Shown here in pieces: positions 3,161-3,609 of a stretch of 9,181 nucleotides of DNA. Position 1 is the first letter of the stretch; each line of letters begins with the position of its first letter. The DNA comes from a virus (taxonomy: Duplodnaviria; Heunggongvirae; Uroviricota; Caudoviricetes). A program made the position numbers and the translations under genes. The stretch lies in the IMG/VR virus record IMGVR_UViG_2548877011_000016; one strand, 5' to 3'. The notes beneath the pieces were generated by a model that was not told the DNA's origin, ran no database searches, and worked only from the letters and a program-made list of their open reading frames with translations.

Positions 3161-3406
3161 TTATTCTCCAGCGCTTTTAACGTTGATGGTTGTTACCTGT
3201 TCCGCTTCGGCAATCTCCCGTTCTGTCAGCGTGGCAAAGTTTGCCGCCGCTGTGGTCATGAATGCGCTTATCAGTTCGGGATGCTCCTTCGCGTATCCTT
3301 CCCCCGCGTGGCGGTCTATCGTTCTGATTGCCACCTTTAAGGAAAGCTCTGTCATGTCTAACGCTTTATATTTTGGCGCTGTCTTATCTCTGGTTTTTCT
3401 GTTCAT
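3161..3406 (-). CDS. Hypothetical protein (81 aa; alternative start at 3355 gives 64 aa)
   Basis: Minus-strand ORF with protein-like charged/helical composition (MTELSLKVAIRTIDRHAGEGYAKEHPELISAFMTTAAANFATLTEREIAEAEQ...). Its 5' end overlaps the iteron region, and G-rich iteron complements could serve as a Shine-Dalgarno. A terminator follows. The antisense plus-strand ORFs look low-complexity. Confidence 0.45.
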   Translation of the reverse strand: MNRKTRDKTAPKYKALDMTELSLKVAIRTIDRHAGEGYAKEHPELISAFMTTAAANFATLTEREIAEAEQVTTINVKSAGE

Positions 3407-3609
3407 TCCCCACTACTCCCCACTTTTGCTCCCCACTTTTTGAAATTACCCACCGTCTCCCCACCTCTTTTTTTTGTGATTCTAACGTTATGTTTTTCAA
3501 TATGTTTTTTACTCCCCACTTTTTTGGGTATATACAGGTGGGAAAGTGGGTAATTATGTTTCAATTTTGTTAAATTCCCCACTCCCCCCACTTTTACTCC
3601 CCACTTTTT
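3406..3609. repeat. Iteron array (CCCCAC(T)TTT) flanking an AT-rich segment: putative origin of replication
   Basis: At least 7 direct copies of (T/C)CCCCAC(T) near 3407, 3417, 3430, 3458, 3513, 3577/3585 and 3598, plus inverted copies (GGTGGGAAAGTGGGTA, 3538-3553), surround an AT-rich stretch (about 3468-3510). The array starts at the stop codon of the helicase gene. Confidence 0.6.

What the first reader, a model, noticed from the sequence alone, without database searches (positions are those of the whole stretch)
3406..3609. Iteron array with AT-rich core directly after the helicase gene: putative satellite replication origin
At least seven direct and two inverted copies of CCCCAC(T)TTT flank an AT-rich stretch and begin at the helicase stop codon. 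This is the classic layout of helicase-dependent origins in SaPI/PICI and P4-type elements (iterons plus an unwinding element 3' of the rep gene). The iterons also overlap the 5' end of the next small gene, suggesting coupling of replication and expression.
Basis: partly seen in the sequence, partly recalled or inferred. Interest (0 to 1): 0.55.

Follow-up and report, generated by a model that had tools for sequence, protein, structure and literature searches.

The report
Replication origin of a known satellite

Summary
The 201-bp gap between the helicase stop codon (3608-3610) and the next gene's ATG (3406) holds nine direct and two inverted copies of (C)CCCAC(TTTT). This far exceeds chance.

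The window is an 8.6-kb island at tRNA-Pro/yejM-yejO. Its origin sequence is 100% identical to that of EcCI11368.1 and EcCI11128. Both are PICIs listed by Fillol-Salom et al. 2018, who describe "iterons / AT-rich / iterons 3' of rep" as the origin layout of all their Gram-negative PICIs. They tested that layout only in EcCICFT073.

Comparative evidence supports an origin bound by the helicase itself:
- Islands with the same flanking genes but a different Rep carry different iterons in the same slot.
- In about 90 helicase homologues, the fourth base of the core GTG-N-GG tracks one residue (His442 here). That residue sits at the start of the recognition helix of a predicted C-terminal winged helix. 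H/K pairs with G, N with A, S/G with C, with no exceptions.
- A dyad (inverted iteron, GTATATAC, direct iteron) is conserved across genera.

The motor is RecA-type (AAA_25), unlike SaPI AAA+ Reps or P4 alpha. Verdict: interpretation supported, kind already known. The specificity code and the dyad are the new details.

The parts
3608..5008 (-). Helicase-initiator (Rep) gene, 466 aa. RefSeq names it 'helicase RepA family protein' (WP_000833625.1).
   Evidence: ORF. Pfam AAA_25, E 2.6e-43. Full-length match to phrog_2850. Annotation in L001, L011 and L012. The gene is 100% identical to that of EcCI11368.1.
4643..5008 (-). N-terminal domain, residues 1-122. It is shared with other Rep alleles of this island family.
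   Evidence: 65% identical to the N-terminus of the EcCICFT073 Pri-Rep, while the rest of the two proteins is unrelated. Matches phrog_864 'DNA primase' positions 84-183. Also matches the N-termini of Rep alleles annotated as DUF5906 and 'primase-like'. AF2 pLDDT 75-90.
4064..4570 (-). RecA-type ATPase core, residues 147-315 (AAA_25).
   Evidence: Pfam. Weak RadA hits in NCBIfam. Foldseek hits to T7 gp4, Rad51 and RadA.
3611..3811 (-). C-terminal winged-helix domain, residues 400-466. Presumed origin-binding domain.
   Evidence: AF2 pLDDT 82-93, with topology H-H-H-beta hairpin. Foldseek matches are winged-helix domains (PcaR, DtxR/IdeR, MCM C-terminal WH, Rpa2 WH) with TM 0.56-0.65 and probability 0.9-0.98, but E is only 0.1-0.3. 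A profile of the domain hits MarR, SlyA and Crp-family regulators over helix 2, helix 3 and the wing.
3683..3685 (-). Codon of His442, at the N-terminal cap of the recognition helix (motif K-H-F-R-R-W). This is the residue that co-varies with the fourth base of the iteron core.
3577..3609 (.). Iteron cluster A, next to rep: three direct copies (CCCCAC at 3577, 3586, 3599). The last copy runs into the stop codon.
   Evidence: The cluster keeps its position in E. coli variants and in other genera.
3551..3576 (.). Short AT-rich spacer (88% AT).
3514..3550 (.). Central dyad: a direct copy (3514-3524), the palindrome GTATATAC (3528-3535), and inverted copies (GGTGGG 3537-3542, AAAGTGGG 3543-3550).
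   Evidence: (the TATATAC columns are invariant). The dyad is present 40-70 nt after the stop codon in 60 of 83 homologous loci, against 2 hits in 753 kb of control sequence. It does not form a significant hairpin (z = -0.66).
3465..3513 (.). Main AT-rich stretch (78% AT). Candidate DNA-unwinding element.
   Evidence: The 40-bp window starting at 3472 is the sixth least stable in the 9.2-kb window (-43.6 against a mean of -55.1, sd 4.4 kcal/mol).
3408..3464 (.). Iteron cluster B, far from rep: five direct copies (CCCCAC at 3408, 3418, 3431, 3459; ACCCAC at 3448). It ends one base before the next gene's ATG and covers its GGAG Shine-Dalgarno-like motif.
3161..3406 (-). 81-aa gene of unknown function, conserved downstream of every Rep allele. 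It marks the distal border of the swapped rep-ori cassette.
   Evidence: phrog_1231, E 6e-48. 77% identical to the gene after the EcCICFT073 origin. In E. coli genomes, homology to islands with other Rep types stops between query positions ~173 and 253 (window ~3333-3413), i.e. inside or at the 5' end of this gene.
3125..3142 (-). Terminator-like hairpin followed by a T-run, after the 81-aa gene. Nothing promoter-like or terminator-like lies inside 3407-3607.

Best explanation
Region 3407-3607 is the replication origin of a phage-inducible chromosomal island (PICI) integrated at tRNA-Pro between yejM and yejO. The upstream gene encodes a self-contained initiator-helicase with three parts: an N-terminal domain shared with other PICI Rep alleles, a RecA-type (AAA_25, DnaB/RepA-like) motor, and a C-terminal winged helix.

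Proposed mechanism (inferred): after helper-phage induction and excision, the winged helices bind the AAAGTGGGG iterons, with His442 at the start of the recognition helix reading the fourth base of the GTG-G-GG core. The two direct-repeat clusters concentrate Rep. The central dyad (an inverted and a direct iteron around GTATATAC) places two Rep assemblies in opposite orientation. The duplex opens at the TATATA centre and/or in the adjacent 78% AT stretch, and the helicase loads itself without DnaA. Priming would be by the host primase or an unidentified partner, because this allele has no recognisable primase domain.

Shown here: the repeats, their non-random clustering, their position, their conservation, the swapping of Rep and iterons as one unit, and the residue/base co-variation. 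Inferred: binding, melting site, self-loading and priming.
For: 1) The repeats are real and non-random.

2) The island is a catalogued PICI. The origin sequence is 100% identical in EcCI11128 and EcCI11368.1, and the helicase gene is 100% identical to that of EcCI11368.1. Fillol-Salom 2018 (PMC6092414) states that the region immediately 3' of rep, with two iteron sets flanking an AT-rich region, is the origin in all the PICIs they identified. They showed rep- and ori-dependent plasmid maintenance for EcCICFT073.

3) Synteny with the validated origin. EcCICFT073 has DUF4222, then Pri-Rep, then a 288-bp iteron region (GGTAGACAG), then a homologue of the 81-aa gene (77% identical).

4) Module swapping. 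E. coli islands with the same flanks but DUF927-type or primase-type Reps carry their own iterons in the same slot: TGCGGGTTA, TGTCGTCCCA, GGTAGACAG.

5) Concerted evolution. In five E. coli variants the iteron positions are kept while the spacers diverge. One variant has CTCAC in most copies, direct and inverted, with two copies reading CTCGC.

6) Co-variation. Among 83 helicase homologues from many genera, in every locus with at least 3 copies, residue X of K-X-[FL]-x-R-W predicts the fourth core base: H/K gives G (36/36), N gives A (23/23), S gives C (7/7). Two further RK-G-F proteins have GTGCG. P0008 (H) and P0011 (N) differ at 3 of 471 residues, yet their iterons differ G against A throughout the array.

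7) X lies at the N-cap of helix 3 of a confidently modelled winged helix.

8) The dyad architecture is conserved 40-70 nt after the stop codon in 60 of 83 loci, against 2 hits in 753 kb of control sequence.

9) There is no DnaA box, IHF consensus, GATC site, sigma-70 promoter-like site or terminator-like site inside the region.

10) There is only one iteron cluster in the island.
Against: There is no experimental evidence for this Rep allele. Only the unrelated-core EcCICFT073 Pri-Rep/ori pair has been tested. The AT-rich stretch is not the least stable DNA in the window; it ranks sixth. The co-variation counts are not phylogenetically independent, because the C-terminal domain and the origin can move together by recombination. 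They therefore prove linkage and matched pairs, not binding. The winged-helix fold matches have weak E-values (0.1-0.3). No primase domain is recognisable, so how synthesis is primed is unknown. The island carries pseudogenes in the immunity region, so this particular copy may no longer be mobile even if its replicon is intact.
Confidence: 0.88

Rival explanations
1. The repeats are mainly operator sites. Rep, or another island regulator, binds them to control transcription running from rep into the downstream 81-aa gene and the packaging genes. The origin lies elsewhere or is supplied by the helper phage.
For: The array sits between two co-oriented genes with no terminator between them. It covers the ribosome-binding region of the next gene. 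The palindromic GTATATAC resembles a -10-like element. Iteron-binding initiators often autoregulate (general knowledge of iteron plasmids).
Against: No sigma-70-like promoter was found in the region. The layout is the one shown to be needed for replication in the syntenic EcCICFT073 slot. The repeats co-vary with the helicase's own DNA-binding domain. There is no second iteron cluster that could serve as the origin. A regulatory side-effect of Rep binding is compatible with the origin reading and does not replace it.
Confidence: 0.06
2. The array is a replication enhancer like P4 crr. It is a Rep-binding cluster just 3' of the rep gene that is required in cis, while initiation takes place at a separate origin.
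For: In P4 the crr repeats lie directly after the alpha gene, and the true ori is 4.5 kb away.
Against: No other cluster of the iteron exists in the window. Outside 3407-3607 there are only isolated copies, at 4431, 6712 and 8010. There is no sequence similarity to P4 alpha and there are no P4 type-1 repeats. The region contains its own AT-rich stretch and dyad.
Confidence: 0.03
3. The repeats are a packaging (pac) recognition site for the island's small terminase.
For: The island encodes a TerS homologue 0.9 kb downstream. Some pac sites are made of repeats (general knowledge).
Against: Near-identical iterons (L002) occur in islands whose downstream region, as far as fetched, shows SSB and a different major capsid gene and no terS. 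The repeats change with the Rep allele and with one residue of the Rep C-terminal domain. cos-type islands such as EcCICFT073 also have iterons in this slot.
Confidence: 0.02
4. The array is non-functional low-complexity or chance repetition in a C/T-rich spacer.
For: The + strand is locally C/T-rich (GC skew -0.43).
Against: Local shuffles that preserve dinucleotide composition never reach the observed counts. The positions are conserved across genera, and the copies change together.
Confidence: 0.01

Closest known systems
Gram-negative PICI rep-ori module (EcCICFT073 Pri-Rep/ori; Fillol-Salom et al. 2018, ISME J, PMC6092414)
   Same: Same island backbone: int, alpA-like HTH, Icd-like, DUF4222, Rep, ori, small conserved gene, all transcribed in one direction. 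Same slot for the origin, and iteron clusters flanking AT-rich DNA. The 81-aa neighbour is 77% identical and the Rep N-terminal 122 residues are 65% identical. This very island (EcCI11368.1 / EcCI11128) is in that paper's Table S1.
   Different: From residue ~125 onward the Rep is unrelated. It has an AAA_25 RecA-type helicase plus a winged helix (466 aa) instead of the 584-aa 'DNA primase family' protein. The iteron is AAAGTGGGG instead of GGTAGACAG. Only the CFT073 allele has been tested experimentally.
SaPI Rep / ori (Ubeda et al.; Qiao et al. 2022, NAR, PMC9371898)
   Same: An initiator-helicase with a C-terminal winged-helix domain recognises 5-6-nt iterons placed immediately after its own ORF. 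There is an AT-rich centre, iterons lie on both sides with some in opposite orientation, and no DnaA or loader is implied (compared).
   Different: The motor is RecA-fold AAA_25 (SF4-like: RadA, T7 gp4, RepA), not AAA+ SF3/MCM-like. There is no sequence match to any solved structure. The two outer clusters have the same orientation, and opposite orientation is confined to the central dyad.
Phage P4 alpha protein with ori and crr
   Same: A satellite of enterobacteria with a multidomain primase/helicase/origin-binding protein. A cluster of short repeats (crr) lies directly 3' of its gene. The island also carries P4-like immunity features: a C4-type RNA, isrK, and Icd-like and Ash-family genes.
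   Different: No similarity to alpha, either full length or its C-terminal origin-binding part. No TGTTCAC(C/A) repeats. A single cluster instead of ori plus crr 4.5 kb apart.
Iteron plasmids (pSC101, R6K, RK2, F) and IncQ RSF1010 RepA helicase
   Same: Directly repeated initiator-binding sites lie next to AT-rich DNA. RSF1010 RepA belongs to the same helicase family as named by RefSeq ('helicase RepA family').
   Different: No Rep_3-type initiator. The repeat unit is 9-12 nt with a 5-6-nt core rather than 17-22 bp. There are no DnaA boxes or IHF site. In IncQ plasmids the iterons are bound by a separate initiator (RepC), whereas here the helicase carries its own DNA-binding domain. The IncQ comparison rests on established knowledge and was not tested here.

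Membership tests
Gram-negative PICI replication origin (Fillol-Salom 2018) | Located immediately 3' of the replication-initiator gene | tested here: met
   The array starts in the helicase stop codon (3608-3610) and fills the 201-bp gap to the next gene.
Gram-negative PICI replication origin (Fillol-Salom 2018) | [quoted passage not shown] | tested here: met
   Cluster A 3577-3609 and cluster B 3408-3464. AT-rich 3465-3513 (78%) and 3551-3576 (88%), with a dyad between them.
Gram-negative PICI replication origin (Fillol-Salom 2018) | PICI island context: about 8-12 kb, integrase, AlpA-like regulator, unidirectional transcription, PICI-specific att site | tested here: met
   int 7940-9181, HTH 7237-7443, all genes on the minus strand. 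Integrated at the yejM site listed in Table S1. The origin is 100% identical to EcCI11128 and EcCI11368.1.
Gram-negative PICI replication origin (Fillol-Salom 2018) | Iterons are cognate to the adjacent Rep (allele-specific) | tested here: met
   Different Rep alleles in the same slot have different iterons. Residue/base co-variation has no exception.
Gram-negative PICI replication origin (Fillol-Salom 2018) | Rep- and ori-dependent autonomous replication; induction by a helper phage | not testable with these tools
   Shown only for EcCICFT073 in the paper.
SaPI-type Rep (self-loading AAA+ helicase) | AAA+ (SF3/MCM-like) ATPase core | tested here: not met
   PF13481 AAA_25. RadA-like hits. Fold matches to T7 gp4, Rad51 and RadA.
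SaPI-type Rep (self-loading AAA+ helicase) | C-terminal winged-helix domain that reads the iterons | tested here: met
   The fold is met: AF2 pLDDT 82-93 with winged-helix-only fold matches. The reading of iterons is supported by co-variation only.
P4 alpha / ori-crr replicon | Homology to alpha (primase-helicase-origin-binding protein) | tested here: not met
   BLASTP best E 0.36. hhalign probability 0.3% for the C-terminal domain.
P4 alpha / ori-crr replicon | Two separate repeat clusters (ori and crr) with type-1 repeats TGTTCAC(C/A) | tested here: not met
   One cluster only. No type-1 repeat in the window. P4 layout.
Classical iteron plasmid origin | Rep_3/RepA-pi type initiator, 17-22-bp iterons, DnaA boxes and IHF site | tested here: not met
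   Pfam finds only AAA_25. The repeat unit is about 9-12 nt. There is no DnaA box or IHF consensus in 3407-3607.

The most novel reading that the evidence does not exclude
The origin specificity of this widespread family of satellite initiator-helicases (RecA-type motor plus winged helix) is set by a one-residue, one-base code. The residue at the start of the recognition helix (His442 here) would read the fourth base of the GTG-N-GG iteron core: H/K pairs with G, N with A, and S/G with C. A single substitution, matched by concerted change of about ten iterons, would then create a new and orthogonal replicon. In addition, the true loading and melting site would be the cross-genus conserved dyad 'inverted iteron, GTATATAC, direct iteron', rather than the larger AT-rich stretch. 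This would be an SF4-type analogue of the SV40 / papillomavirus / SaPI self-loading initiators. I did not find it described in the papers I could search.
Probability: 0.5. Interest if true: 0.5.

Novelty: already known. Interest (0 to 1): 0.32.

Why it matters
As a discovery it adds little. PICI origins of this layout were described in 2018, and this island is in that catalogue. Its value is as a clean, well-populated natural data set. There are hundreds of matched Rep/origin pairs in which one amino acid and one base change together, on a replicon of about 1.6 kb. That makes three things directly testable:
- how a self-loading helicase reads its origin;
- how new replication specificities arise in satellites;
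- whether orthogonal mini-replicons can be engineered by a single H/N/S swap plus iteron editing.

It also shows that Gram-negative PICIs use at least one RecA-fold (DnaB/RepA-like) initiator-helicase, built on the same plan as the AAA+ Reps of SaPIs.

Tried and rejected
- Sequence search of the helicase against all PDB chains found nothing.
- The fold search with the full-length model was dominated by RecA-like cores and by low-confidence regions, so it said nothing about the C-terminal domain. I therefore modelled that domain alone.
- P4 relationship rejected: no similarity to alpha and no type-1 repeats.
- Host-factor sites (DnaA box, IHF consensus, GATC) are absent from the region.
- The promoter and terminator scan found nothing inside the region.
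- A cruciform or hairpin at the dyad is not supported (z = -0.66).
- The phage collection has no homologue that includes the C-terminal domain. Matches cover only the ATPase core, so the module is not obviously borrowed from a sequenced phage.
- Literature searches for a description of this RepA-type PICI origin, or of EcCIEDL933 replication, found nothing specific. Figures are not held, so I could not see whether Fig. 2a of Fillol-Salom 2018 shows the CCCCAC iterons.
- The idea that specificity divergence is needed for co-residence of islands is weakened. Some Xenorhabdus genomes carry two loci of the same N/A type.
- The ORFs that cross the array (3403-3636 minus, 3328-3573 plus, 3546-3791 plus) are taken to be artefacts. 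RefSeq does not annotate them, and the region has indels among relatives.

Full report
**What is in the sequence**

All island genes lie on the minus strand. A 466-aa ORF (5008-3608) is followed by a 201-bp non-coding gap (3607-3407) and then an 81-aa ORF (3406-3161). The gap holds:
- eight exact CCCCAC on the + strand (3408, 3418, 3431, 3459, 3514, 3577, 3586, 3599);
- one degenerate direct copy (ACCCAC, 3448);
- two inverted copies (GTGGG at 3538-3542 and 3546-3550).

The consensus is CTCCCCACTTTT, which reads AAAAGTGGGGAG in the sense of the genes. Only three other CCCCAC/GTGGGG occur in the remaining 9 kb. In 2000 dinucleotide-preserving shuffles of the 201 bp alone, no 6-mer reaches the observed eight copies; the mean is 2.5 and the maximum is 6.

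The last copy runs into the TAA stop codon of the 466-aa gene. The first copy ends one base before the ATG of the 81-aa gene. The array therefore covers that gene's ribosome-binding region, with a GGAG nine bases upstream of the ATG, but not its coding sequence.

Two AT-rich stretches lie inside the array: 3465-3513 (78% AT) and 3551-3576 (88% AT). The window average is 51%.

**What the element is**

The window is E. coli chromosome. It contains the 3' end of yejO (1-498) and an island of about 8.6 kb that ends at tRNA-Pro/yejM in complete genomes. In gene order on the minus strand the island encodes:
- an integrase;
- a small HTH regulator;
- a decayed Icd/Ash region that contains a C4-type antisense RNA and isrK;
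- DUF4222;
- the 466-aa 'helicase RepA family protein' (Pfam AAA_25, E 2.6e-43);
- the repeat array;
- the 81-aa protein;
- a small terminase;
- a capsid-like protein.

Fillol-Salom et al. 2018 (PMC6092414) list PICIs at this attachment site. I fetched two of them, EcCI11128 and EcCI11368.1. Their 3407-3607 sequence is 100% identical to the window's, and the helicase gene of EcCI11368.1 is 100% identical.

[quoted passage not shown] It says all the PICIs they identified share this organisation. It also shows that a rep-ori fragment of EcCICFT073 maintains a ts plasmid only when both rep and ori are intact. The feature therefore belongs to a described kind, in an island that is already catalogued.

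**Comparative tests of the origin reading**

(a) *Synteny with the validated origin.* EcCICFT073 has DUF4222, Pri-Rep (584 aa), a 288-bp gap with GGTAGACAG repeats in both orientations, and then a homologue of the 81-aa gene (77% identical), followed by SSB. The window's helicase shares its first 122 residues with that Pri-Rep (65% identity) and nothing after them.

(b) *Module swapping.* In E. coli genomes, homology to the window stops inside or at the 5' end of the 81-aa gene whenever the neighbouring Rep is of another type. Islands with a DUF927-type or a primase-type Rep carry their own repeats in the same slot: TGCGGGTTA, TGTCGTCCCA or GGTAGACAG. The exchangeable unit is Rep residues ~125 to the end plus the repeats.

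(c) *Concerted evolution.* In five E. coli variants of this helicase, 77-96% identical at the DNA level, the repeat positions are conserved while the spacers diverge. In one variant most copies, direct and inverted, read CTCAC instead of CCCAC, and two read CTCGC.

(d) *Wider family.* Eighty loci with homologous helicases came from Citrobacter, Xenorhabdus, Pantoea, Kosakonia, Pectobacterium, Serratia, Morganella and even Oceanospirillaceae. Most have a repeated AAAGTG-N-GG motif within 330 bp after the stop codon.

**Co-variation between the helicase and its iterons**

The last ~66 residues of the protein form helix, helix, helix and a beta hairpin. AF2 pLDDT is 82-93 in the full-length model and 86-94 for residues 12-75 of the domain-only model.

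Foldseek matches of the domain model are winged-helix domains: IclR-type PcaR, DtxR/IdeR, MCM C-terminal WH and Rpa2 WH. TM scores are 0.56-0.65 and probabilities 0.9-0.98, though E-values are only 0.1-0.3. A profile of the domain hits MarR, SlyA and Crp-family regulators over helix 2, helix 3 and the wing.

Helix 3 begins with the motif K-X-[FL]-x-R-W. X is His442 in the window (codon 3683-3685). Among the 83 usable loci, every locus with at least three iteron copies follows one rule:

| Residue X | Fourth base of core | Loci obeying |
|---|---|---|
| H or K | G | 36 of 36 |
| N | A | 23 of 23 |
| S | C | 7 of 7 |

Two further proteins with RK-G-F have GTGCG repeats.

The sharpest case is P0008 (H) against P0011 (N). 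These 471-aa proteins differ at three residues. Their downstream arrays read GTGGGG and GTGAGG respectively in cluster A, the dyad and cluster B. The H and N forms occur in several otherwise different helicase backgrounds (466-, 470-, 471- and 465-aa forms).

These counts are not phylogenetically independent. The C-terminal domain and the origin can recombine as one block. What is shown is that only matched pairs are found. That is what one expects if this domain binds these repeats.

**Architecture**

Read from the stop codon in the sense of the gene, the order is the same across genera:
1. two or three direct iterons;
2. a spacer;
3. one or two inverted iterons;
4. a conserved palindromic centre (GTATATAC in the window, 3528-3535);
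5. one direct iteron;
6. an AT-rich stretch of about 50 bp;
7. three to five direct iterons;
8. the next gene.

The dyad, with matched core base, is found 40-70 nt after the stop in 60 of 83 loci. It occurs twice in 753 kb of control sequence from the same loci. It does not fold into a significant hairpin, so it is more likely a symmetric protein-binding or melting site than a cruciform.

The region has no DnaA box, IHF consensus or GATC. It has no promoter-like or terminator-like site either. A terminator-like hairpin follows the 81-aa gene.

**Most likely mechanism**

Shown: position, repeats, conservation, cassette behaviour, and co-variation with a winged-helix residue.

Inferred:
- The winged helices of Rep bind the iterons.
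- The flanking clusters raise the local Rep concentration.
- The dyad orients two assemblies head to head.
- DNA opens at the TATATA centre and/or the 78% AT stretch.
- The RecA-type motor loads itself without DnaA.
- Transcription from rep probably reads through the origin into the 81-aa gene, so Rep bound there could also affect downstream expression. Nothing here tests that.
- Priming is unexplained, because this allele lacks a recognisable primase domain.

**Comparison with known systems**

The feature works like the SaPI Rep/ori system: a helicase with a C-terminal winged helix, 5-6-nt iterons immediately after the ORF, and an AT-rich centre. It is not a member of that protein family, because its ATPase is RecA-fold AAA_25 rather than AAA+.

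It is not P4-like in its replicon. There is no similarity to alpha, no type-1 repeats, and one cluster instead of ori plus crr. The island does carry P4-like immunity RNAs.

It is not a classical iteron-plasmid origin. There is no Rep_3 initiator, the repeats are short, and there are no DnaA or IHF sites.

It is a member of the Gram-negative PICI rep-ori class, as one of its Rep alleles.

**Verdict**

The kind of feature and the island itself are already in the literature, so novelty is low. The residue/base code and the conserved dyad are details I did not find described. They are directly testable.

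Noticed in passing
window 6217-6304 (-) and 6326-6402 (-): Rfam matches above the gathering score to C4 antisense RNA (73.8 bits) and isrK (66 bits). This is a P4/P1-type immunity RNA region inside the stretch where RefSeq annotates only Icd-like and Ash-family pseudogenes. The long ORFs listed at 5971-6630 and 6069-6428 are probably spurious.
   Followed up: partly
window 4643-5008 (-), compared with L094 4742-5116: The Rep gene is a mosaic. Residues 1-122 are 65% identical to the EcCICFT073 Pri-Rep N-terminus, and similar N-termini occur on Rep alleles annotated as DUF5906 and 'primase-like'. 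The motor and the DNA-binding parts are unrelated. The function of this shared domain is unknown.
   Followed up: partly
window 676-700: A tandem repeat CCGTATAACTAAACGTATAACTAAAA. Its reverse complement resembles the att core TTTGTAGTTATACGTTTGTAGTTATACGG given for the yejM-site PICIs, so this is probably the island's distal att site. A strong hairpin plus T-run at 568-590 looks like the yejO terminator.
   Followed up: partly
window 969-1895 (-) and 2055-2543 (-): A 308-aa protein matches only the C-terminal part of HK97-type major capsid proteins (PF05065 positions 47-274; phrog_617 positions 384-610 of 626). A 162-aa small terminase (phrog_641) lies nearby. Related islands instead carry a 'ClpP-like prohead protease/major capsid fusion' or a full capsid plus decoration protein. 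This may be a truncated capsid gene or a capsid-size-redirecting homologue.
   Followed up: no
window ~6567-6850: This stretch does not align with the closest complete-genome copies (L001, L012, L011). It is an indel or replacement of about 250 bp in the regulatory/immunity region.
   Followed up: no
L014 (Xenorhabdus beddingii), about 220-330 nt after the helicase stop: A second complete-looking iteron array of the G type (AAAGTGGGG, with its own CCCCAC...TGTATATAT...GTGGGG dyad) lies directly after the A-type (GTGAGG) array that matches the adjacent N-type helicase. These are two origins of different specificity in tandem.
   Followed up: no
L102 = NZ_CP148328.1 (whole record, 10,790 bp, circular): A record deposited as an E. 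coli plasmid has the PICI backbone: int, AlpA, Icd-like, DUF4222, another Rep allele, and a prohead protease/capsid fusion. It is probably an excised, circular satellite captured in an assembly.
   Followed up: partly
window 7389-7397 (-): The only perfect DnaA-box consensus (TTATCCACA) in the window lies inside the alpA-like HTH gene (7237-7443), far from the iteron region. It is a single site and may be chance.
   Followed up: no
L018/L025, L022/L027, L019/L023 (Xenorhabdus genomes): Single genomes carry two or more loci with helicases of the same N/A specificity class, so islands with the same origin specificity can co-reside.
   Followed up: no
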